Shown: positions 1,491 to 13,472 of the stretch, one piece after another
Numbering within the stretch: the first letter of the stretch is position 1
Layout: each line of letters begins with the position of its first letter
From: a virus
Lineage: Duplodnaviria > Heunggongvirae > Uroviricota > Caudoviricetes
IMG/VR virus record: IMGVR_UViG_3300047317_000139
Length of the DNA stretch: 64,000 nt
Strand: one strand, 5' to 3'
Notes under the pieces: model-generated
What the model was told of the DNA's origin: nothing
What the model saw: the letters and a program-made list of their open reading frames with translations, nothing else
The model's database searches: none
Made by a program: the position numbers and the translations under genes

Positions 1491-2266
1491 GGTTCGGAAA
1501 GTCGGCAGAGGAAGCCGCGGCAGAGCCTGGCCGCGGTGGTGGTGGAGGCGACTTCATCAAGTACCTGAAGGAGGGCGACAACACCGTCCGCATCCTCCAG
1601 GAGCCCACGGAGTGGAAGTACTACTGGGAGCACTTCTCCCCAGCGGGCTTCTCCTTCCCGTGCCCACGGGACAAGGACGACCCCCTGGACATGTGCCCTG
1701 GGTGCAGCAGCGACAACGAGAAGATGAAGAAGGTCAACCGCAGGATCGCCTTCAACGTGCTGCACTCGTTCAACGGCCAGGAGTACGTGGACGCCATGAA
1801 GATCGGCCCGATGGTGGCCGACAAGCTGGACAACCGCTACAAGAGGTTCGGCACGGTCACCGACCGCGACTACACGATCACGAAGTACAAGTCCTCGGGC
1901 GACCGCTGGGACTTCGACGTGGAGGGCAACACGGTCACGCCGATCGACCTGCGCAAGGAGGACTGGAAGGACATCGAGGCCCTGCTCCAGCAGGCCTGGG
2001 ACGACGCCTGGGGTGACCCGAGCCAGGCTGCCGCGAACCGCCAGGCCACCGAGGCCCCGAAGCGCCCCACCATCGCTGCGACCCCGAAGCCACAGCCGGA
2101 GGAGCCCCCTTTTGAGGAGGAGAAGGCCTACAACGAGGCGGACCTTCGCTCCATGGACCACACAGCCCTCGTGAAGCTCATCAACGATGAGATGAAGATG
2201 ATCCCACCGTCGACTCTGACGACCTCTGACGCTGTCGTGGACTGGCTGATGGAGCTCCAGAGCTGA
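1487..2266 (+). CDS. hypothetical replication-module protein (259 aa) with a Gly-rich N-terminus and a 3-Cys FPCP...MCPGC cluster
   Basis: Lies immediately upstream of, and coupled to, the DnaE-like polymerase gene. The Cys cluster suggests metal binding. Function unknown. Confidence 0.5.
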   Translation: MRFGKSAEEAAAEPGRGGGGGDFIKYLKEGDNTVRILQEPTEWKYYWEHFSPAGFSFPCPRDKDDPLDMCPGCSSDNEKMKKVNRRIAFNVLHSFNGQEYVDAMKIGPMVADKLDNRYKRFGTVTDRDYTITKYKSSGDRWDFDVEGNTVTPIDLRKEDWKDIEALLQQAWDDAWGDPSQAAANRQATEAPKRPTIAATPKPQPEEPPFEEEKAYNEADLRSMDHTALVKLINDEMKMIPPSTLTTSDAVVDWLMELQS

Positions 2267-5022
2267 TGAAGATCATCCCGACTCCCAGGTGGCGGGTGGT
2301 ACCTACGCCCGCCCCTGGGTGGTGGTCCCTGCACACCCACTCCCGGTACTCAGTCAACGACGCGATGGCCTCGGTGCCGGCGATCGTGGAGAAGGTAGCC
2401 GCGATGGGCCAGAGGGCAGTGGGTCTGCAGGACCACGGGAACATGGCCGCGAGCGTGGAGCTCTACCAGGCCTGCATGAAGGCCGGCATCACTCCGTTCC
2501 CCGGCTCAGAGATGTACTTCGTCCCCGACACCGCTGGGTACCGCGCGGTACGGGCGAGCAAGAAGGAGGGCCGGGAGAAGGCCACGATGTTCCACATGGG
2601 CGTCTCGGCGTACACCACCGAGGGCTACGAGAACCTGGTCAACCTGAGCACTCGCTCTCACCTGAACCACCACTACAAGCCACTGGTGGACTACCAGATG
2701 CTGGCCCAGCTGGCCGAGGACGGTCGCACTGCTGGGCTCGCGATAAACACCGGCTGTTACTACGGCTACCTGGCTCAGACACTCCTGCATGAAGGAGAGG
2801 ATGCGGCTCGACAGTTCCTGTACACGTTGAGTGAGTGGTTTCCCGACTCGGTGTACGTGGAGATCCAGAACCACAACATCACACACGACGAGGGGACGAA
2901 CGACGATGAGCTGGCTGATGGGCTTGTGGTACTGGCTGACCGAGTTGGTCTCCCCGTGGTCATCACTCAGGACTCGCACTACCTCGACGAAGGCGACCGT
3001 GCCGACCACGATGGGCTCAAACGCCTCGTCTCCTTCGGCCCGGACCCAGACGACGCTGTTTTCCCAGGGGACGGCTTTCACGTATGTGATGCCCAGTGGA
3101 TCGCCGACCGTCACAGTGAACGTCGCCTTGCGCGAGGAGTGGAAGGACTGGCAGATCTCCTCGGTCGCCACACACTCACGATCCCTGTCCTTGACTCTTA
3201 CTCCTACTCGGTCCCGGAGGTAGTCGACAATCCGCAGAAGGCCATGCAGGCCCGATGCGTGGCTGCTCTGGAGGGGATGTTCGCACCGAAGAAGGTGCCA
3301 CCTCGCTACGCCAACCAGCTGCTCGAAGAGTTCAACGTGATCGAGGCCAGCGGGATGGCCGGGTACATGATGCTGGTCAGTCAGGTCACCGACTGGCTGC
3401 GCACCAACGACGTGATGTTCCAGACCAGGGGCAGTGCTGCCGGCTCGCTGGTGTGCTGGACGCTGGGGATCAGCAACGTCGACCCGATCAAGTGGAACCT
3501 GCGCTTCGAGCGCTTCCTGAGCAAGGACCGGACCAAGCCTCCGGATGTTGACCTGGACGTGGCCCACGACCGGCGCGACGATCTGCTCGCGATGCTGAAC
3601 ACCCGGTTCACCGCACACCAGATCGGGTCGTGGGCCACCTACTCCCTCAACGAGACCGTGGACGTGGATGGAGAGACTCAAAGAGGGTCCCTACGGGTGA
3701 GGTACTACTCGGCCTCGGGGAAGAAGGATGACGGGGCCTCCTCCTGGGCCGAGGTGCCTGAGGCAGATCGCGCGATGCTAGTACGCCTCAGCGATCGCCA
3801 TCTGTACAAGGGCATGGGCACGAACGCCGCTGGCATCGTGCTCACCTCGACCCTGGAGGAGTTTCAGCGTCTGGTGCCGATGGCCTGGATGGCACGCAGC
3901 AACAACAAGGGTGGGTTCGTCACCCAGTACAGCAAGGACCAGATCGAGGCGCTGGGACTGGTGAAGCTCGACGCGCTCGGGAGCAAGACGCTCACCGTGC
4001 TGGACCACTGCATGCGGATGCTGGACCTGCCCATCAACCGGATCGGTGACATCGAGTACCAGGACGTGCCCACCTACAACCTGATCCGCAGCGGGTACAC
4101 CGATGGGCTGTTCCAGCTGGAGGGTCGGAGCACCCAGTGGGGTCTGAAGGACCTGAAGCCGACCTCGATCAAGGACGTGATCGCGGCGATGGCACTGTTC
4201 CGTCCGGCCACCATGAACACCGGTGCCACTCGTGCGTTCATCGAGCGCAAGTGGGGTGGCGCAGTGCCGCTGCGGCATGAGCTGATCATGAAGGCCACCA
4301 AGGACACGCACGGGATCATGCTCTACCAGGAGCAGGTGATCGACCTGCTGCGTGGGCTGGGCATGGACGCGGACAACCTGACCAGGTTCCTGAAGGCCGT
4401 GAAGGCCAGCAACAAGGACATCGGATCCGCTGGCGTGGTGATCGAGTCGTACCAGAAGTGGATCCACGAGCGCTGCGAGCAGGAGGGGATGAGCGCTGAT
4501 GACCAGAAGTTCCTCCACGACGCCATCGCCGGCTTCGCCGAGTACGGCTTCAACCGTGCTCATGCGACTGTCTACGGCATCACGGCGTACCGCGCGGCGT
4601 ATCTGGCTGCTCGTCATCCACTGCAGTACCACACTGCGCTCCTGGGCGTCGCGAGCGAGGGAGACAGCAAGAAGGAGAACCGCTACCTCAAAACCACGAA
4701 GCGACGTGGCGTACGAGTCCTCGCCCCCGAGATCAACACCTCAGGAGCCTCCTACACCGTCGATGAGCAGCGTGGAGCCATCCGTCGCGGACTCCAGTCC
4801 ATTGACGGGGTTGGGGCGATCAGCGCCGCTCGACTGGAGGCTCTCCAGCCCTTCCGGGACCTGGACGATCTGGTCGAGCGAGCCGCCGCCCAGACCGTTT
4901 CTGGACACAAGGAGTACGACGGCACTCCCGAGTCACTCACTGGTGTCCTGGGGAAGCTCTACGCCTCCGGATGCCTGACCGTACTGACCAACGTGAGGAA
5001 GATCCACGATGCACAGATGTGA
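2266..5022 (+). CDS. dnaE: DNA polymerase III alpha subunit-like replicative polymerase (compact, 918 aa, N-terminal PHP domain)
   Basis: The N-terminal WSLHTHSRYSVNDAMASV...GLQDHGNMAA...GSEMYF matches the PHP (histidinol-phosphatase-like) domain motifs of DnaE. Length and downstream conservation fit a trimmed phage DnaE. Confidence 0.8.
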   Translation: MKIIPTPRWRVVPTPAPGWWSLHTHSRYSVNDAMASVPAIVEKVAAMGQRAVGLQDHGNMAASVELYQACMKAGITPFPGSEMYFVPDTAGYRAVRASKKEGREKATMFHMGVSAYTTEGYENLVNLSTRSHLNHHYKPLVDYQMLAQLAEDGRTAGLAINTGCYYGYLAQTLLHEGEDAARQFLYTLSEWFPDSVYVEIQNHNITHDEGTNDDELADGLVVLADRVGLPVVITQDSHYLDEGDRADHDGLKRLVSFGPDPDDAVFPGDGFHVCDAQWIADRHSERRLARGVEGLADLLGRHTLTIPVLDSYSYSVPEVVDNPQKAMQARCVAALEGMFAPKKVPPRYANQLLEEFNVIEASGMAGYMMLVSQVTDWLRTNDVMFQTRGSAAGSLVCWTLGISNVDPIKWNLRFERFLSKDRTKPPDVDLDVAHDRRDDLLAMLNTRFTAHQIGSWATYSLNETVDVDGETQRGSLRVRYYSASGKKDDGASSWAEVPEADRAMLVRLSDRHLYKGMGTNAAGIVLTSTLEEFQRLVPMAWMARSNNKGGFVTQYSKDQIEALGLVKLDALGSKTLTVLDHCMRMLDLPINRIGDIEYQDVPTYNLIRSGYTDGLFQLEGRSTQWGLKDLKPTSIKDVIAAMALFRPATMNTGATRAFIERKWGGAVPLRHELIMKATKDTHGIMLYQEQVIDLLRGLGMDADNLTRFLKAVKASNKDIGSAGVVIESYQKWIHERCEQEGMSADDQKFLHDAIAGFAEYGFNRAHATVYGITAYRAAYLAARHPLQYHTALLGVASEGDSKKENRYLKTTKRRGVRVLAPEINTSGASYTVDEQRGAIRRGLQSIDGVGAISAARLEALQPFRDLDDLVERAAAQTVSGHKEYDGTPESLTGVLGKLYASGCLTVLTNVRKIHDAQM

Positions 5023-5338: not shown

Positions 5339-5532
5339 TGGAGTGGGAAGAGGGCCTGCGGATGGCTCAGCACATGAAGGAGCAGGACGCCAACATCAAG
5401 GCTGCGATCTTCCAGTGCCAGGCCAACCAGCACGGTGTGGTCGCCCTGAAGTTCACCAACGAGTGTCGGGAGATGGAGATCGAGATCCTGGATGAGCCGT
5501 TCGGCGACGACGTGCGGGTGTACCCGGGATGA
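5338..5532 (+). CDS. hypothetical protein (64 aa)
   Basis: ORF table; ATGA-type coupling with both neighbours. Confidence 0.35.
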   Translation: MEWEEGLRMAQHMKEQDANIKAAIFQCQANQHGVVALKFTNECREMEIEILDEPFGDDVRVYPG

Positions 5533-6284
5533 GGTTCTCCGAGACGGTCAAGCACGTCGACCCAGGCCTGGTGCTGTCCAAGCGGCACGAGGCGTGGATC
5601 ACCGGCAGTGACCACCCGATGTACAGCCAGCGAGCTGTCGACTTCGCTCAGTCACAACTGGGCAAGGTGGACAGGAAACGTGAGGGCACCCTCAGCGCGA
5701 GCTCACTGGGTGAGTGCGAGCGGTACCAGCAGTTCGTGTTCATCGGGATGCCCAAGCTGATGCCAGACGCGAAGAACGCGGCGAAGATGGCCAACGGCTC
5801 GTTCATGCACCTGCGCTGGCAGATGGAGGGCCTGACCGAGGGCTGGCTGGACTTCGCTGAGGTGCCCATCAACAGTGATGCATACCATCTGATGGGTACG
5901 ATGGATGGGGTGTTGTACGACGGTTCCATCCTGGAGCTGAAGAGCATCAACGCCAACGGATTCAGTCGTATCGCTGCCTTCGGACCACTGCATCCGCACC
6001 TCTACCAGATGGCCACGTACATGCTCTGCTCAGCTCGGGAGAAGGGCGTCTTCCTGTACGAGAACAAGGACACCCAGGAGTACACCGAGATCGTGGTGGA
6101 CCCCGACGACCTGCCCATGACCGAGGTGCTGATCAAGGCGGAGAAGATGTGGGAGAGCACGCAGCGACAGGTGCTGAGCGAGCCACTGAGCGACTGCATG
6201 GACAAGAAGGGCTGGAAGTACAACAGCTGCCCGTTCCGGGACCGGTGCCTGTTCGTCTACGACTGGGCGGAGGCGGAGAAGTGA
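5529..6284 (+). CDS. Cas4/RecB-family PD-(D/E)XK exonuclease with a C-terminal Fe-S-type Cys cluster
   Basis: A QMATYMLC (QhxxY-like) motif and a C-terminal SDCMDKKGWKYNSCPFRDRC cysteine cluster resemble Cas4-like phage exonucleases. Confidence 0.6.
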   Translation: MRFSETVKHVDPGLVLSKRHEAWITGSDHPMYSQRAVDFAQSQLGKVDRKREGTLSASSLGECERYQQFVFIGMPKLMPDAKNAAKMANGSFMHLRWQMEGLTEGWLDFAEVPINSDAYHLMGTMDGVLYDGSILELKSINANGFSRIAAFGPLHPHLYQMATYMLCSAREKGVFLYENKDTQEYTEIVVDPDDLPMTEVLIKAEKMWESTQRQVLSEPLSDCMDKKGWKYNSCPFRDRCLFVYDWAEAEK

Positions 6285-7813: not shown

Positions 7814-8083
7814 ATGAGTGCACAGGTCCTAGAGCGGAACGAGGACTCGCGGGATGAGACGCGAGACGACCTCCACGCGGCGAACAGAGCACGTCTGGTG
7901 GCCAAGGAGCGCTACGAGGCAGCCCTGATGAAGGCGCGGGCAGAGGGCTGGAACAACTCCCAGATCGCACGAGCCCTGGGAGTGAGTGAGGCTGCGGTAC
8001 GCCTGTACTGGAAGCGTCACCCCTACTTGGTCCGCGATCTCTCTACCGTTGTAGAAGTCCATACCAACCGGAAGGCGTCTTGA
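7814..8083 (+). CDS. HTH DNA-binding protein (sigma-70 region-4-like helix: NNSQIARALGVSEAAVRLYW)
   Basis: Helix-turn-helix motif typical of small phage transcription regulators. Confidence 0.45.
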   Translation: MSAQVLERNEDSRDETRDDLHAANRARLVAKERYEAALMKARAEGWNNSQIARALGVSEAAVRLYWKRHPYLVRDLSTVVEVHTNRKAS

Positions 8084-8829
8084 TGAGCACTGTGCATGTC
8101 ATGCACTGCTCCATGCAGTTCTCGGACAACACGGCCCAGAAGAAGGCCGATGCGAAGAAGATCTTCGACCGCGCCAAGACCCGGAAGGTGGGCTGGATCA
8201 CGGGCACCGAGGCGGGGATGGGAGCCAGTGCCGACCTGAGGAAGGCACTCCAGGATGAGGCACGAGCCCACAACTACAAGTTCGTGGTGCACTCAGATGT
8301 CTGGATCGCGGTGAACCGAGAGCTGATCACTCGTGGCTCCTGGGATGACGGCTGGATCGCCACCCTCCCGAGCAGCGCGGGGAGTCAGAAGTTCAGCGAG
8401 CGTGGGCTGGTCTGGGTCCAGTTCGCGAACAAGGAGCTGGGCACGATCAGTGTGGGCTGCAGCCACTACATGACTCATGGCCAGAAGCCCTCTGACGAGT
8501 ACTACAAGGCCAACATCAAGGCGGCCAAGACGATCGGGGACTGGGCCAAGAAGCACGGTGCCGGCTCCAAGATCTGCTTCTACGGTGGGGACCAGAACAT
8601 CCAGGACCGCGATGGCGACACGTTCCGCGGTCAGCCGATGACCTCGCTGGCTGATGAGCTGAAGGACTGGCAGAGCACTGGGCATGGTGCGATCGACGTG
8701 ATCGCCTCCTACGACCACGACGGTCGGGTCAAGGGCAAGTACTGGCGGGTGCTGGATGACAAGGAGTTCTTCCTGAACACCGACCACTGGCTGTGTGAGG
8801 GTGGGTTCGAGGTAGGACCTGTGAAGTGA
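8080..8829 (+). CDS. endonuclease/exonuclease/phosphatase (EEP)-family protein, paralogue 1
   Basis: Carries an N-terminal HxxHCSxxF motif, a GGDQN (GDxN-like) motif and a C-terminal NTDHW (SDH-like) motif. It is clearly homologous to 9376..10332. Confidence 0.5.
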   Translation: MMSTVHVMHCSMQFSDNTAQKKADAKKIFDRAKTRKVGWITGTEAGMGASADLRKALQDEARAHNYKFVVHSDVWIAVNRELITRGSWDDGWIATLPSSAGSQKFSERGLVWVQFANKELGTISVGCSHYMTHGQKPSDEYYKANIKAAKTIGDWAKKHGAGSKICFYGGDQNIQDRDGDTFRGQPMTSLADELKDWQSTGHGAIDVIASYDHDGRVKGKYWRVLDDKEFFLNTDHWLCEGGFEVGPVK

Positions 8830-9113
8830 CCTGGCTGGTGGCCCTGGTGATGGCCATGACGGGCTCAGTCAGCCCACACGAGTTCAGGCAGCTCGACCTG
8901 GGGATGACGCGCTACCGCGTGCATCACATCACCGAGGCGACCGGGGTCAAGGTCGCACCTGGGGAATGGCGCTACCGGACCTCACTGGGCATGGGCACCA
9001 AGGTGGTGCTGGACTTCACCAGAGCGCACAAGGAAGACCCGATGCGACTCACGCAGAAGCGCTGGTGCACCAGGGACTTCACTCCGGTGTGGACCTGCCA
9101 GCACCATCCCTGA
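8826..9113 (+). CDS. hypothetical protein (95 aa)
   Basis: ORF table; its stop abuts the operator repeats. Confidence 0.4.
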   Translation: MTWLVALVMAMTGSVSPHEFRQLDLGMTRYRVHHITEATGVKVAPGEWRYRTSLGMGTKVVLDFTRAHKEDPMRLTQKRWCTRDFTPVWTCQHHP

Positions 9114-9170
9114 GTGATATCACCACGAGTGATATCACCTGTGGTTTGATATCACCATGAGTGATATCAC
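9114..9170. promoter_or_regulatory. four tandem copies of the 10-bp perfect palindrome GTGATATCAC (one as TTGATATCAC) spaced about 15-18 bp apart: a putative operator array
   Basis: Read directly: ...tgaGTGATATCACcacgaGTGATATCACctgtggttTGATATCACcatgaGTGATATCACcaag. The last copy overlaps the ATG of the RHH gene. GATATC is otherwise expected to be very rare at this GC content. Confidence 0.55.
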
Positions 9171-9366
9171 CAAGAAGGCCATCATCGTGCGGCTACCTGA
9201 GGAGTACGTGACCCTGATCGACATCAGGGCCAAGGAGCGAGGGATCTCTCGGAACGAGTGGTTCACGAGGATGGCCAAGTACGGGCTCTTCGAGAGGGAC
9301 AAGGTCCAACAGCCGTCTGAGAAGCCCACGGCGAAGCGCAAGTTCGTGGTCAACCCCAGCGGATAA
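9157..9366 (+). CDS. ribbon-helix-helix (CopG/Arc-like) DNA-binding protein
   Basis: The segment KKAIIVRLPEEYVTLIDIRAKERGISRNEWFTRM has a beta strand followed by two helices, the typical RHH pattern. The operator array lies directly upstream. Confidence 0.6.
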   Translation: MSDITKKAIIVRLPEEYVTLIDIRAKERGISRNEWFTRMAKYGLFERDKVQQPSEKPTAKRKFVVNPSG

Positions 9367-9375
9367 CCTGAGCAC

Positions 9376-10332
9376 ATGGCCAACCTGCCGAGCTTCCACC
9401 ACATCCACTGCAGCTCCAGGTTCGACCGCTCAGCTGCCTCTCTGGATGCTGACATCACCGACTGGCAGACCAAGAGCTCTCTGATCACCCTCACCGAGGT
9501 GGAGGACGACCATCGGGCCTCACAGCTGCGGGCTCAGGGCTGGGGCTACTACGCCTGCAAGCTGGGCCCGTACGCCGCGGATGGTGCGATCGGCTGGGAC
9601 ACCACGAAGTGGAAGCAGCTGCACGGTGCGGTCAGGAAGCTGAGCAAGCACACCTACATGCGCGCGTACTCCAAGCGAGTCACCTACATCTACTCAGTCA
9701 CTGCAGTACTGAAGCGTGTGGACACCGGCCACAAGCTGCTGGTGAGCGTGGCCCACTTCCCAGCCCACATCGAGGGGCAGAACGGCTGGCGCACCGATCT
9801 GGAGAAGTGGAAGGCCCGCAAGGCCACCTACCTGGATGCGCTGGGTGGCTGGTCGAACCACGTGAACGACCAAGTGCGCAAGCAGCACGTGGACGCAGCC
9901 CTGCTGGTAGCTGACTGGAACCTGAACCTGAAGGAGAACTGGGTCAGGAGCACGATCATGGATCACTGGGGACCGAGCTGGCACCTGGCCTGGCAGGCGT
10001 TCCCGACCTCTGGTGGAAGCATGCACGGCGGGCCTGTAGCGCCTCTGGGAGCGCCTGGGGTGAGCAAGGGCGACCGGATCATCGACGGGAGTCTGTACCA
10101 GGGCCTGAAGGTCGACACGCCACCCAACCTGATGGCACGGGTGAGCAGCTCGGACCATCGCCCGTACCAGGAGCGGTTCACGTTCGCGGACAAGGCCGAG
10201 AACCCGATCACTGCCCCAGCCTCAGGTGACATCAAGCACGGTGATGCGTGGTGGGGCTTCGGGGACTACATGACCGATGAGATCTACCCGACCCCAGCTG
10301 CGACTGGAGACGCCGGCGGCGAGGTGCTGTGA
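9376..10332 (+). CDS. endonuclease/exonuclease/phosphatase (EEP)-family protein, paralogue 2
   Basis: FHHIHCSSRF aligns with VHVMHCSMQF of the 8080 gene. It carries ADWNLN (GDxN-like) and a C-terminal SSSDHRPY (SDHxP-like catalytic His motif). Confidence 0.5.
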   Translation: MANLPSFHHIHCSSRFDRSAASLDADITDWQTKSSLITLTEVEDDHRASQLRAQGWGYYACKLGPYAADGAIGWDTTKWKQLHGAVRKLSKHTYMRAYSKRVTYIYSVTAVLKRVDTGHKLLVSVAHFPAHIEGQNGWRTDLEKWKARKATYLDALGGWSNHVNDQVRKQHVDAALLVADWNLNLKENWVRSTIMDHWGPSWHLAWQAFPTSGGSMHGGPVAPLGAPGVSKGDRIIDGSLYQGLKVDTPPNLMARVSSSDHRPYQERFTFADKAENPITAPASGDIKHGDAWWGFGDYMTDEIYPTPAATGDAGGEVL

Positions 10333-10333
10333 G

Positions 10334-10714
10334 ATGGCCAAGGTCATCACCAGCGTCACGATGGGAGATCGGGCGTTCCGACTCCGTCAGGAGCTGGGCT
10401 GGTCTGGGGACCTGCTGGGTCGGCACATGCGGAACGCAGGTCACTCCCACTGGCAGCACGCTCAGGTGTACATGACCGAGGCAGGCACTCGGCACCTGCG
10501 GGTCTACGAGGCCTACTCGCTGGCAGACATCCTGCGTGTGTCTCTAGATGACCTGGCTTTCGGGATGGAGGGCGATGACATCTCTCTGATGCTGGCCAGC
10601 AAGGCGCGCAAGCTGATGGAGGAGCGGGAAGTGCTGCAAGAGCGTCTGGTGAAGGTGGACAAGCTGCTGCTGGGCTACAGACTGCGCGATCTGCGTAACT
10701 GGGAGGTCTCATGA
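10334..10714 (+). CDS. putative DNA-binding regulator (HTH-like; possibly Cro/CI-type)
   Basis: ATG at 10334 immediately follows the upstream stop. The protein is basic with a helical N-terminal segment and lies in the regulatory region. The table ORF 10277 starts inside the previous gene. Confidence 0.4.
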   Translation: MAKVITSVTMGDRAFRLRQELGWSGDLLGRHMRNAGHSHWQHAQVYMTEAGTRHLRVYEAYSLADILRVSLDDLAFGMEGDDISLMLASKARKLMEEREVLQERLVKVDKLLLGYRLRDLRNWEVS

Positions 10715-12502: not shown

Positions 12503-12985
12503 ATGACCCTGATGGGGGTCGACCTGGGCATCCACAAGGTCGCCTGCTTCGTGCCTGGGGGCCGACCTGATGCTCAGATTCTGGAGAGCAGCGTGGGCTC
12601 CCGCGCGCTGCAGCTGTGTGAGCTGAGCTCGTTCGTGCATGACATGGCCGGCCTCCATCAGGTAGATCAGGTGTGGATCGAGGACACCCTGATCGGGAAC
12701 AACCGCAAGTACTCGATCCAGCTGACAGAGGTCAGGGGAGCTGTGATGGCTGCCCTGGCCCTGCATGCTGACGTTCGTCTGGTGAACGTCGCCACCTGGA
12801 AGTCGCAGGTGCTCGGGGATGGTCATGCCTCGAAAGATGCGGTGAGGGACTACATCCATGTCACTCACCCTGACTATGCTGCGCTCTGTGGGAGCAACCA
12901 GGACCTCTACGACGCCTGCAGCATCTCCCTCTACGGACTCCAGATCAGAGAACGGGCCTCCGGGCTCCGCCTGGTCTCTGGATGA
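12503..12985 (+). CDS. ruvC: RuvC-like Holliday junction resolvase
   Basis: The N-terminal MGVDLGIHKVACFV matches the RuvC GIDPG-like first motif. WIEDTLIGNN and a C-terminal DACSISLYG (DAxxxAL-like) add support. The size is right, and phage RuvC-like resolvases are common. Confidence 0.55.
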   Translation: MTLMGVDLGIHKVACFVPGGRPDAQILESSVGSRALQLCELSSFVHDMAGLHQVDQVWIEDTLIGNNRKYSIQLTEVRGAVMAALALHADVRLVNVATWKSQVLGDGHASKDAVRDYIHVTHPDYAALCGSNQDLYDACSISLYGLQIRERASGLRLVSG

Positions 12986-13010
12986 CTGGCTCGATGAGAC
13001 CGGGCAGCGG

Positions 13011-13472
13011 ATGCCCGACGAAGACTCCGAGCGATGGGTCAGCTACAACATCTCCGACCTCTACCCCGAGTGGCAGCTGCAAGCACACTGCGCCGGCGTA
13101 GGGGTCTCGTACTACTTCGGGGATGAGGAAGAGCAGCCCACCATGTCGATCCGACAGGTGCGAGCTGCAACTAAGCTCTGCGACGTCTGCCCAGTCTTCA
13201 CAGAGTGCCTGACGTGGGCGTTGTCCACGCGCGAGGAGTACGGAGTCTGGGCAGGCACCTCAGGCCGAGTGCGTCGCCGGATCTTCAAGATGATGGACAA
13301 TGGCGAGACCACGGTCCAAGACGTGGTGGAGGAGTTCCGTAATGGACGAGGTCACACCTATCGAATCGGCGAAGCGACGCCCACGAGCTCGGTCAGCCGG
13401 CTTGGCCAAGGAGATCGAGGACAAGGCGCGCGAGGCCTACCAGATGCAGATCGCGGGGAAGCTGCCATCTGA
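13011..13472 (+). CDS. whiB: WhiB-like (Wbl) Fe-S transcription regulator
   Basis: Four Cys in WQLQAHCAG...CDVCPVFTECLTWAL followed by GVWAGTS (GVWGG motif) and a basic GRVRRRI patch. The start is uncertain: 13011 is the first in-frame ATG after the ruvC stop, and the table ORF begins at 12858 inside ruvC. Confidence 0.65.
   Translation: MPDEDSERWVSYNISDLYPEWQLQAHCAGVGVSYYFGDEEEQPTMSIRQVRAATKLCDVCPVFTECLTWALSTREEYGVWAGTSGRVRRRIFKMMDNGETTVQDVVEEFRNGRGHTYRIGEATPTSSVSRLGQGDRGQGARGLPDADRGEAAI

What the first reader, a model, noticed from the sequence alone, without database searches (positions are those of the whole stretch)
9110..9172. Four-copy array of the perfect palindrome GTGATATCAC overlapping the start of a ribbon-helix-helix gene
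GTGATATCAC or TTGATATCAC occurs four times within about 60 bp at regular 15-18 bp spacing. This is a striking AT-containing palindrome (it contains an EcoRV site) in an otherwise ~68% GC genome. The last copy overlaps the ATG of a CopG/Arc-type RHH protein (9157..9366). This architecture is typical of a cooperative, autoregulated RHH repressor/operator switch. Here it sits in the middle of a nuclease-gene pair rather than at a classic lysogeny switch.
Basis: seen in the sequence. Interest (0 to 1): 0.65.

Follow-up and report, generated by a model that had tools for sequence, protein, structure and literature searches.

The report
Self-regulating phage repressor with palindrome operator array
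Four copies of a 10-bp palindrome sit on the start of a small ribbon-helix-helix gene in an uncultured actinobacterial phage and are almost certainly that protein's own operator, an ordinary kind of genetic switch that relatives document unusually well because operator and DNA-reading residue change together.

Summary
GTGATATCAC lies at 9114, 9129 and 9161, and TTGATATCAC at 9146 (spacing 15/17/15). These four copies hold the only GATATC sites in the 64-kb window. Copy 3 ends 1 nt before the ATG (9157), and copy 4 forms codons 2-5 (S-D-I-T) of a 69-aa protein whose RHH fold I confirmed.

Relatives support the RHH/operator reading:
- The array travels with the RHH gene while the flanking genes change.
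- In 12 lineages read at DNA level, the residue two positions before the invariant beta-strand Arg is I/A/S wherever sites are GTGAT.ATCAC (7 of 7). It is Asn wherever a half-site is ACCAC (5 of 5).
- A nearby conserved HTH does not covary with the arrays.
- The non-palindromic GTGATACCAC variant keeps repeat identity but loses RNA complementarity, which argues against an RNA-structure role.

Most likely the RHH dimers occupy the array and repress their own gene and the EEP-fold gene 10 nt downstream. That would resemble Arc in P22 immI or omega of pSM19035. Binding, repression, cooperativity and the promoter remain untested.

I found no toxin partner, no ParA and no integrase. This is a new member of a known kind, and interest is modest.

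The parts
9114..9123 (.). Operator copy 1, GTGATATCAC. It begins directly after the TGA stop (9111-9113) of the upstream 95-aa ORF.
9129..9138 (.). Operator copy 2, GTGATATCAC. It is the centre of the 24-bp near-palindrome ACCACgaGTGATATCACctGTGGT (9122-9145).
9122..9126 (.). Accessory half-site ACCAC (GTGGT type), overlapping the 3' end of copy 1.
   Evidence: Read from the sequence. GTGGT/ACCAC is the half-site used by relatives L206, L230 and L237.
9141..9145 (.). Accessory half-site GTGGT just 5' of copy 3. A GTGRT element occupies this position in L004, L013, L001, L016, L235 and L239.
9146..9155 (.). Operator copy 3, TTGATATCAC. This is the start-proximal copy and ends 1 nt before the ATG.
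   Evidence: The same juxtaposition (0-1 nt) is seen in L004, L013, L001, L016, L235, L239 and L240.
9161..9170 (.). Operator copy 4, GTGATATCAC, inside the RHH gene. It encodes residues 2-5 (S-D-I-T).
   Evidence: The N-terminal x-D-I-T peptide is conserved in the family.
9157..9366 (+). 69-aa ribbon-helix-helix protein. It has a beta-strand (about residues 7-14, AIIVRLP), two helices (15-28 and 32-48), a G29-I30-S31 turn and a disordered C-terminal tail (49-69).
   Evidence: Pfam RHH_1 E=0.0086, below the cut-off. PDB profile hit to the MazE6 RHH, E=1.2e-4. AF2 model plus Foldseek returns Arc, CopG, MazE6, AmrZ and others at 1.2-1.4 A.
9376..10332 (+). 318-aa endonuclease/exonuclease/phosphatase-fold protein. 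It starts 10 nt after the RHH stop, has no SD, and is probably co-transcribed and therefore under control of the array.
   Evidence: AF2 pLDDT 81.9, pTM 0.85. Foldseek hits to nocturnin, TDP2, CNOT6L and 3mpr at E about 3e-13. PF03372 hit in 4 of 36 homologues.

Best explanation
The array is the operator of the RHH protein encoded at 9157-9366.

Proposed mechanism: RHH dimers insert their two-stranded beta-ribbon into the major groove at each GTGAT.ATCAC palindrome. The simplest arrangement is one dimer per 10-bp palindrome, with the protein dyad on the DNA dyad. The residue two positions before the invariant Arg (Ile10 here) reads half-site position 4. Occupying four sites (plus two accessory half-sites) that bracket the start codon blocks transcription into the RHH gene and the EEP-fold gene 10 nt downstream. 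The block could act at a promoter inside the array, possibly giving a leaderless mRNA, or on read-through from upstream. Either way the result is negative autoregulation that caps or shuts off expression of this small operon during infection.

Shown: the array, its uniqueness in the window, the RHH fold, the physical linkage of array and RHH gene across relatives, and the covariation of site and beta-strand residue.

Inferred: binding itself, stoichiometry, cooperativity, repression rather than activation, the position of the promoter, and co-transcription with the EEP gene.
For: 1. Statistics. All four GATATC sites of the 64-kb window are in the array.

2. RHH fold. Supported. The G-x-S turn and the R12/S31/R32/N33/W35 positions are invariant in 28 homologues.

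3. Linkage. GTGATATCAC arrays sit on the RHH start in L004/L014, L013, L001, L007, L235, L238, L239 and L240. The flanking genes differ between them: a 268-aa gene, a 260-aa gene, EEP before or after the RHH, RuvC, or GH12.

4. Covariation.
- I/A/S at the position two before the Arg goes with ATCAC halves in 7 lineages.
- Asn goes with an ACCAC half in 5 lineages: L016 and L236 with GTGATACCAC, and L206, L230 and L237 with GTGGTACCAC.
- The apparent exception P0119 was resolved at DNA level in favour of the rule.
- The two types are interspersed in the tree.

5. Other RHH types. More divergent RHHs in the same genomic slot carry entirely different repeats: GCGTCAGAC in L009, L207, L216 and L229, and CGTCCATACGACTGG in L011.

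6. The alternative binder fails. The conserved HTH at 7814-8083 keeps the same recognition helix across loci with different arrays.

7. Independent cases. TGATATCA arrays found by a DNA-only scan abut RHH genes of other Pfam families (HicB/Arc, FitA-like, PSK_trans_fac, RHH_3). All of these have a hydrophobic residue at the same beta-strand position.

8. Precedent. RHH omega binds arrays of WATCACW overlapping its own promoters (PMC9499535).
Against: - No sigma-70-type promoter is detectable in or near the array, either in the window or in L238. In L238 the RHH must have its own promoter.
- Spacing between adjacent copies varies from 13 to 19 bp among relatives. That is unusual for RHH systems that depend on fixed dimer-dimer contacts.
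- The window protein itself scores below Pfam's RHH cut-off.
- The covariation rests on 12 lineages and a poorly resolved tree.
- The hybrid site GTGAT.ACCAC, paired with a homodimer, does not fit a simple symmetric code.
- About 14 kb of the genome was not visible, so other targets cannot be excluded.
Confidence: 0.75

Rival explanations
1. The palindromes act at the RNA level. Because every copy is self-complementary, the transcript folds into stable hairpins (copies 1:4 and 2:3, or 1:2 and 3:4). These could terminate upstream transcription or hide the SD-less AUG and so control translation.
For: - RNA from 9095-9200 folds to -37.5 kcal/mol, z = -3.8.
- Copies 1 and 2 were scored as a terminator-like hairpin.
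- The AUG lies between two complementary copies.
- No SD precedes the RHH gene.
Against: - Hairpins are an automatic by-product of closely spaced palindromes.
- In class B relatives (L016, L236) all copies changed to the same non-palindromic GTGATACCAC in direct orientation. This preserves repeat identity but not complementarity; L236 folds at z = -0.66.
- The exact 10-mer is conserved across RHHs that are only 25-45% identical. RNA pairing would not require that.
- The T-run after copy 2 is absent in L001 and L007.
Confidence: 0.07
2. The RHH and the downstream EEP-fold protein form a toxin-antitoxin-like pair. The RHH would both neutralise the enzyme through its C-terminal tail and repress the operon at the array.
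For: - The best PDB sequence and fold neighbours include the RHH antitoxins MazE6 and Rv0298.
- The gene order, RHH first and then the effector, with an operator over the start, is typical of type II TA loci.
- The window protein has a 21-aa disordered C-terminal tail.
Against: - The partner is not conserved. The RHH precedes RuvC in L235, L236 and L240, precedes GH12 in L238, and follows the EEP gene in L239.
- EEP occurs without an adjacent RHH in L010, L215 and L222.
- The long tail is restricted to the window's close relatives.
Confidence: 0.05
3. The array is a centromere or iteron site bound by an omega/ParG-type RHH. It would serve partition or replication of a plasmid-like prophage.
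For: - It shares the ATCAC core with the omega heptad WATCACW.
- Omega sites are also multi-copy arrays at the regulator's own gene.
Against: - No ParA/Walker partition ATPase, integrase or plasmid replication gene was found among the neighbours or the large ORFs scanned.
- There is a single array, at least within the 64 kb visible here.
- The sites are 10-bp palindromes spaced 13-19 bp apart, not contiguous heptads.
- No sequence similarity to omega appears in the PDB search at E<=1.
Confidence: 0.03
4. A different protein binds the palindromes, either the phage HTH at 7814-8083 or a host regulator. On this view the RHH gene is merely the regulated target.
For: - Direct binding by the RHH has not been shown.
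- An HTH gene lies 1 kb upstream in nearly all relatives.
Against: - The HTH recognition helix (VSEAAVRLYWKRHP) is essentially unchanged in loci whose arrays are GTGATATCAC, GTGATACCAC, GTGGTACCAC or GCGTCAGAC.
- The RHH beta-strand, in contrast, changes with the site.
- A host factor would not explain site switching between closely related phages.
Confidence: 0.05

Closest known systems
Arc repressor of Salmonella phage P22 (immI region)
   Same: - Both are small phage RHH proteins encoded as the first gene of a short operon, upstream of an effector gene.
- Both are thought to act on an operator at their own operon to limit its expression during lytic growth.
- The beta-strand motif is similar: F-N-L-R-W-P in Arc, and F-N-L-R-L-P in family members such as L016.
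- Arc is among the top fold neighbours.
   Different: - The Arc operator is a single 21-bp site bound by two dimers (from my own knowledge). Here there are four 10-bp palindromes plus accessory half-sites spread over 57 bp and running into the coding region.
- The window protein does not reach the Pfam Arc threshold.
- There is no mnt-like divergent partner and no antirepressor.
Omega (ParB) of Streptococcus pyogenes plasmid pSM19035
   Same: - Omega is an RHH that binds multi-copy arrays overlapping the promoter of its own gene.
- The repeat core ATCAC is identical to the half-site here (PMC9499535).
- A small or hydroxyl residue followed by x-R in the beta-strand resembles the S/A/I-x-R pattern of this family. 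The omega residues are from my own knowledge.
   Different: - Omega sites are 7-10 contiguous 7-bp heptads with one dimer per heptad. Here pairs of half-sites are fused into 10-bp palindromes spaced 13-19 bp apart.
- There is no ParA partner.
- No detectable sequence similarity was found.
CopG and MetJ-type RHH repressors, and RHH antitoxins (MazE6, Rv0298, FitA, ParD)
   Same: - They share the beta-alpha-alpha fold and the G-x-S/T/N turn.
- They autoregulate through palindromic or repeated sites at the promoter or start of their own operon.
- MazE6 is the best PDB sequence hit (E=1.2e-4).
   Different: - No conserved toxin partner exists.
- The operator sequence and arrangement differ.
- MetJ boxes are contiguous 8-bp units and need a co-repressor (from my own knowledge).

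Membership tests
Ribbon-helix-helix (MetJ/Arc/CopG) superfamily | Beta-strand followed by two helices (beta-alpha-alpha) in a domain of about 45 residues | tested here: met
   - The AF2 model has an extended segment at 7-14 and helices at 15-28 and 32-48, with pLDDT 82-86 over the core.
- Nearly all of the top 38 Foldseek PDB hits are RHH proteins, at 1.2-1.4 A.
- A profile search hits the MazE6 RHH at E=1.2e-4.
- The homologue L016 passes the Pfam cut-offs for RHH_1 and HicB.
- The window protein itself is below the cut-off (16.4 against 20.5 bits).
Ribbon-helix-helix (MetJ/Arc/CopG) superfamily | G-x-S/T/N turn between the helices, which contacts the DNA backbone | tested here: met
   G29-I30-S31 in the window protein. 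S31, R32 and N33 are invariant in 28 homologues.
Ribbon-helix-helix (MetJ/Arc/CopG) superfamily | Obligate dimer forming a two-stranded antiparallel beta-ribbon that reads the major groove of repeated or palindromic sites | not testable with these tools
   Only a monomer could be modelled. Indirect support comes from the palindromic sites and from covariation of a beta-strand residue with a half-site base in 12 lineages.
Type II toxin-antitoxin system with an RHH antitoxin | A conserved, adjacent cognate toxin gene | tested here: not met
   The downstream gene varies (EEP, RuvC, GH12 or small ORFs). The order is reversed in L239. EEP occurs without an RHH in L010, L215 and L222.
Type II toxin-antitoxin system with an RHH antitoxin | A C-terminal toxin-binding extension conserved in the antitoxin family | tested here: not met
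   The tail at 49-69 is disordered. It is present only in close relatives, and most family members end 10-15 residues after helix 2.
Type Ib partition system (omega/ParG-type RHH centromere-binding protein) | A partner ParA (Walker-type) ATPase gene in the same locus | tested here: not met
   No ParA-like hit among the ten neighbouring genes or the large ORFs scanned with Pfam and PHROGs. Not every small ORF was scanned.
Type Ib partition system (omega/ParG-type RHH centromere-binding protein) | A centromere made of contiguous short repeats (omega: 7-10 heptads of WATCACW) | tested here: not met
   The ATCAC core is the same, but it is arranged as 10-bp palindromes at 15/17/15 bp spacing.
Arc-like DNA-binding domain (Pfam PF03869) | A score above the Pfam gathering threshold | tested here: inconclusive
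   - The window protein has no Arc hit at E<=0.1.
- The homologues L016 (20.1 bits) and L001 (19.2 bits) fall just below the 20.4-bit cut-off.
- P0116 and P0118 carry precomputed PF03869 hits.

The most novel reading that the evidence does not exclude
These phages provide a natural specificity-switch series for RHH proteins. A single beta-strand position (I/A/S or Asn, two residues before the invariant Arg) tracks a single half-site base (GTGAT or GTGGT). Hybrid intermediates exist. The same rule, hydrophobic-x-Arg paired with GATATC, also appears in unrelated RHH families from Bosea, Caulobacter and gut elements.

If the rule holds, it is a usable recognition code for predicting RHH operators from sequence.

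The rapid turnover of RHH/operator specificities in one genomic slot would also suggest that these cassettes act as exclusion or immunity determinants between co-infecting related lytic phages, rather than as housekeeping autoregulators.
Probability: 0.2. Interest if true: 0.6.

Novelty: new member of a known kind. Interest (0 to 1): 0.35.

Why it matters
As a switch this is ordinary: a small RHH protein sitting on repeats at its own gene.

Its value lies in the comparative series found around it. Related uncultured actinophages carry at least five RHH/operator specificity types in the same slot. Within one protein family, the operator half-site and one DNA-reading residue change together. That gives a directly testable recognition rule for a fold whose DNA code is poorly predictable.

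It also marks a regulated early-gene cassette (RHH plus an EEP-fold enzyme) in a phage lineage that has no cultured close relatives.

Tried and rejected
- **GenBank phages.** Megablast of 8000-10500 and tblastn of the RHH against GenBank phages found nothing. The nearest cultured relatives, by portal protein, are Arthrobacter phages at about 46% identity.
- **Two-copy exact pattern in IMG/VR.** This gave one true relative (L001) and two unrelated low-GC hits (L002, L003).
- **Three-copy TGATATCA scans.** Scans of metagenomes and genomes returned mostly heterogeneous tandem or coding repeats and large freshwater arrays. Only a minority abut RHH genes.
- **Promoter scans.** The sigma-70 scans found no promoter, and manual inspection found no consistent TANNNT element. 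The promoter remains unidentified.
- **Paralogy of the flanking genes.** BLASTP of the 249-aa protein against the 318-aa protein found nothing. hhalign aligned them end-to-end with matching motifs but at only 8.8% probability.
- **PDB sequence searches.** Searches with the 318-aa and 249-aa families found nothing useful. The EEP fold was recovered only through structure prediction.
- **Literature.** No paper describes GTGATATCAC or TGATATCA as an RHH operator. Every hit was a cloning primer.
- **P0123.** One contig look-up returned no DNA.
- **Explanations considered and rejected:**
  - CRP-like site: the GTGA-N6-TCACA spacing does not fit.
  - Terminal inverted repeats of a mobile cassette: there are no matching repeats 3' of the RHH gene.
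  - TA, partition, RNA-structure and HTH-binder readings: see the rival explanations.

Full report
**1. The observation**

The sequence at 9110-9172 reads ctgaGTGATATCACcacgaGTGATATCACctgtggtTTGATATCACcATGaGTGATATCACca. Exact GTGATATCAC lies at 9114, 9129 and 9161. TTGATATCAC lies at 9146. Centre-to-centre spacing is 15, 17 and 15 bp.

GATATC occurs four times in the 64,000-bp window, and all four are here. About 6.7 are expected from base composition. With one mismatch allowed, the 10-mer has 5 hits against 0.91 expected over the whole window, and four of them fall within 57 bp. By my own arithmetic that is vanishingly unlikely by chance.

The unit is slightly longer than reported, AGTGATATCACC in three copies. 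Copy 2 is flanked symmetrically by ACCAC (9122-9126) and GTGGT (9141-9145), which makes a 24-bp near-palindrome.

The window is 64.3% GC, not about 68%. The upstream 95-aa ORF (8826-9113) ends in the TGA that abuts copy 1. Copy 3 ends 1 nt before the ATG at 9157. Copy 4 starts 1 nt after it and encodes residues 2-5, S-D-I-T. The 69-aa ORF has GC3 0.86, like the other real genes here.

**2. The protein**

Pfam gives only sub-threshold RHH_1, CopG_antitoxin and HicB hits for the window protein (E=0.009-0.03). Other evidence confirms the fold:
- A profile of five family members hits the RHH antitoxin MazE6 in the PDB at E=1.2e-4, and Arc at 0.11.
- A homologue 55% identical over residues 1-42 (L016) passes the Pfam cut-offs for RHH_1 and HicB.
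- An AlphaFold2 model built on 28 sequences shows an extended N-terminal segment, helices at 15-28 and 32-48, and a disordered tail.
- Nearly all of its top 38 structural neighbours are RHH proteins (Rv0298, MazE6, Arc, CopG, AmrZ, TacA, NikA, PutA, ParD) at 1.2-1.4 A over 36-37 residues.
- The G-I-S turn, R12, D22, R24, S31, R32, N33 and W35 are invariant in the family.

**3. Genomic context**

The window is most of an uncultured actinobacteriophage genome. An identical RHH protein occurs on 26 contigs, the longest 77.7 kb.

Genes identified:
- a large DNA polymerase (2266-5022)
- a Cas4-like exonuclease (5529-6284)
- an HTH protein (7814-8083)
- RuvC (12503-12985) and WhiB (12858-13472)
- tail fibre, terminase and portal genes
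- a reverse-strand block from 54.4 kb containing HNH, AAA ATPase and SPFH genes

No integrase or ParA appeared among the genes scanned. The portal protein is about 46% identical to those of Arthrobacter phages, and no DNA-level match exists in GenBank phages.

The gene 10 nt downstream of the RHH (9376-10332, 318 aa) has a confidently predicted endonuclease/exonuclease/phosphatase fold. The model has pLDDT 81.9 and pTM 0.85. Foldseek finds nocturnin, TDP2, CNOT6L and 3mpr at E about 3e-13. The catalytic-type residues E41, D180, N182, D237 and H261 are conserved. Its substrate is unknown.

The 249-aa protein at 8080-8829 aligns end-to-end with that family at the motif positions, but only weakly (hhalign E=0.004, probability 8.8%). 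'Nuclease pair' is therefore partly right.

**4. Comparative evidence that the array belongs to the RHH**

*(a) Linkage.* GTGATATCAC arrays sit in the same position in these relatives: one copy ends 0-1 nt before the start codon, and one copy forms codons 2-5.
- L004/L014 (RHH 85-87% identical)
- L013 (76%)
- L001 (25%)
- L007 (34%)
- L235, L238, L239 and L240

The neighbours differ. Upstream genes differ in L004 and L013. The EEP gene is downstream in the window but upstream of the RHH in L239. RuvC is downstream in L235, L236 and L240, and a GH12 gene in L238. The EEP gene has no adjacent RHH in L010, L215 and L222. The only constant partner of the array is the RHH gene.

*(b) Covariation.* Consider the beta-strand residue two positions before the invariant Arg.
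- It is I, A or S in all seven lineages whose sites are GTGAT.ATCAC.
- It is Asn in all five lineages in which at least one half-site is ACCAC. These are GTGATACCAC x3 in L016 and L236, and GTGGTACCAC in L206, L230 and L237.

Codons 2-5 are themselves an operator copy, so the N-terminal peptide (D-I-T or D-T) reports the operator type in the protein sequence. The one apparent exception in the protein alignment, P0119 (D-T with Ala), turned out at DNA level to have two perfect GTGATATCAC copies upstream.

The two types are interspersed in a neighbour-joining tree. This suggests several independent switches, though a tree on 56 columns is weak.

*(c) Divergent RHHs in the same slot carry different repeats.*
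- GCGTCAGAC-type repeats in L009, L207, L216 and L229, some of them inside the RHH coding sequence
- CGTCCATACGACTGG in L011
- other palindromes in L205 and L210

*(d) The conserved HTH does not covary.* The HTH 1 kb upstream keeps an essentially identical recognition helix across all these array types, so it is not the cognate binder.

*(e) Independent cases.* A DNA-only scan for three TGATATCA copies in genomes and metagenomes returned mostly unrelated repeats. It also returned arrays abutting RHH genes of other Pfam families:
- HicB/Arc-like in gut contigs and in L095
- FitA-like in L100
- PSK_trans_fac in five Bosea genomes
- RHH_3/RHH_1 in a Caulobacter MAG

All of these have a hydrophobic residue at the equivalent beta-strand position. 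L106 even has S-I-I-V-R, like the window's A-I-I-V-R.

**5. Mechanism**

The best-supported model is negative autoregulation. RHH dimers occupy the palindromes that bracket the start codon and block expression of the RHH gene and, probably, of the EEP gene 10 nt downstream. This resembles Arc at the head of the P22 ant operon. It also resembles omega, whose WATCACW repeats share the ATCAC core and overlap its own promoters (PMC9499535).

Details that remain open:
- **Promoter.** No sigma-70-type promoter is detectable. The RHH and EEP genes lack the SD-like motif found before 38 of 56 genes. The palindrome abuts the start codon within 0-1 nt in most relatives. These three points fit a leaderless transcript starting at the ATG, with the promoter inside the array. 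A roadblock of read-through transcription is equally possible.
- **Spacing.** Adjacent spacings vary from 13 to 19 bp among relatives, but two successive spacings sum to 30-32 bp in seven loci. Copies i and i+2 would therefore lie on the same face of the helix. I cannot say what this means for cooperativity.
- **Stoichiometry.** Whether one dimer binds each 10-bp palindrome (MetJ-like) or each 5-bp half-site (omega-like) cannot be decided here.

**6. Rivals**

*RNA structure.* The region folds well as RNA (-37.5 kcal/mol, z=-3.8), and copies 1 and 2 resemble a terminator. This is automatic for clustered palindromes. In class B relatives all copies became the same non-palindromic GTGATACCAC, which keeps repeat identity but loses complementarity (L236 z=-0.66). 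Exact sequence conservation across divergent RHHs also points to protein recognition.

*Toxin-antitoxin pair.* The partner gene is not conserved, and the long C-terminal tail is limited to close relatives.

*Partition site.* There is no ParA, and the repeats are not contiguous heptads.

*Another binder.* The HTH does not covary with the arrays.

**7. Comparison with known systems, and novelty**

This is an RHH autoregulator with a multi-site palindromic operator, which is a well-known kind. It is a member of the RHH superfamily: the fold and the turn motif were tested and met. It is not a TA antitoxin and not a partition protein, because defining features of both were tested and not met. It falls just outside the Pfam Arc family threshold.

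I found no paper describing this operator sequence. I rate it a new member of a known kind, of modest interest.

The most interesting by-product is the natural specificity series (ATCAC to ACCAC, coupled to I/A/S to Asn) together with the turnover of RHH/operator types in one slot of related phages. That could yield a recognition rule for RHH proteins. It might also reflect selection for distinct specificities between competing phages. Both ideas are untested.

Noticed in passing
window 1-64000: Several GC-rich 6-bp palindromes are strongly avoided. GGCGCC occurs 0 times against about 70 expected from composition (18 by a Markov model). CTCGAG is 0 against 22/28, ACGCGT 0 against 22/11, ATCGAT 0 against 7/17, and TTCGAA 0 against 7/9. 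This looks like restriction-site avoidance. GATATC is also absent everywhere except in the array.
   Followed up: partly
L142, L146, L160, L175, L196 (Bosea genomes); L155 (Caulobacter MAG); L098/L037/L131 (human-gut contigs); L095; L100; L106: Arrays of 3-8 TGATATCA palindromes lie directly at the start of RHH genes from different Pfam families (PSK_trans_fac, RHH_3/RHH_1, HicB/Arc, FitA-like). All have a hydrophobic residue two positions before the beta-strand Arg. TGATATCA may be a recurrent, possibly convergent, RHH operator core.
   Followed up: partly
L025 36-294; also L029, L042, L045, L120, L122, L123, L129 and L021, L028, L030, L033, L034, L048, L070: Freshwater-lake metagenome contigs carry non-coding arrays of up to 15 copies of (T)ATGATATCAT(A) at irregular 12-25 bp spacing. 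My crude ORF scan found no RHH-like ORF next to them. Their nature is unknown.
   Followed up: no
L009 2580-2690; L207 about 3600-3720; L216 about 2110-2230; L240 about 586-640: Operator-like repeats are embedded in the coding sequence of the RHH that presumably binds them. In L009 and L207, GCGTCAGAC copies encode D-A-S-D and the beta-strand V/L-R-L-T. In L240 a perfect GTGATATCAC encodes V-I-S of the beta-strand K-V-I-S-L-R. The same DNA therefore both encodes the DNA-reading strand and matches the site it would read.
   Followed up: partly
window 9114-9170; L004, L001, L007, L016, L206, L230 arrays: Adjacent copy spacings vary from 13 to 19 bp, but two successive spacings sum to 30-32 bp (about three helical turns) in all seven loci. 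Alternate copies are thus in phase while the middle copy floats.
   Followed up: partly
L001 2292-2324: A perfect 12-bp stem with a 9-nt loop (GCCCCGGCTCTG...CAGAGCCGGGGC) lies 15 bp upstream of the array in this relative. It looks like a terminator without a T-run, which would imply that the RHH there starts a new transcription unit.
   Followed up: no
L215 about 2440-2460: A perfect 16-bp palindrome, TGTCATACGTATGACA, sits just upstream of the EEP homologue in a relative that has no RHH gene in the slot.
   Followed up: no
L210, L213, L214 about 1923-2489: In some relatives a 168-188-aa gene with a DPPY motif, which looks like a DNA methyltransferase, is inserted between the RHH gene and the EEP gene.
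   Followed up: no
window 10277-10714: The longest version of the 145-aa ORF (weak HTH_31 hit) overlaps the 3' end of the EEP gene by 56 nt. The homologue in L004 starts later, so the true start in the window is probably downstream of 10277.
   Followed up: no
L206 3740-3995: The RHH gene of this relative appears split between two reading frames, whereas the intact L230 homologue is in one frame. This is probably an assembly indel in a long-read contig.
   Followed up: no
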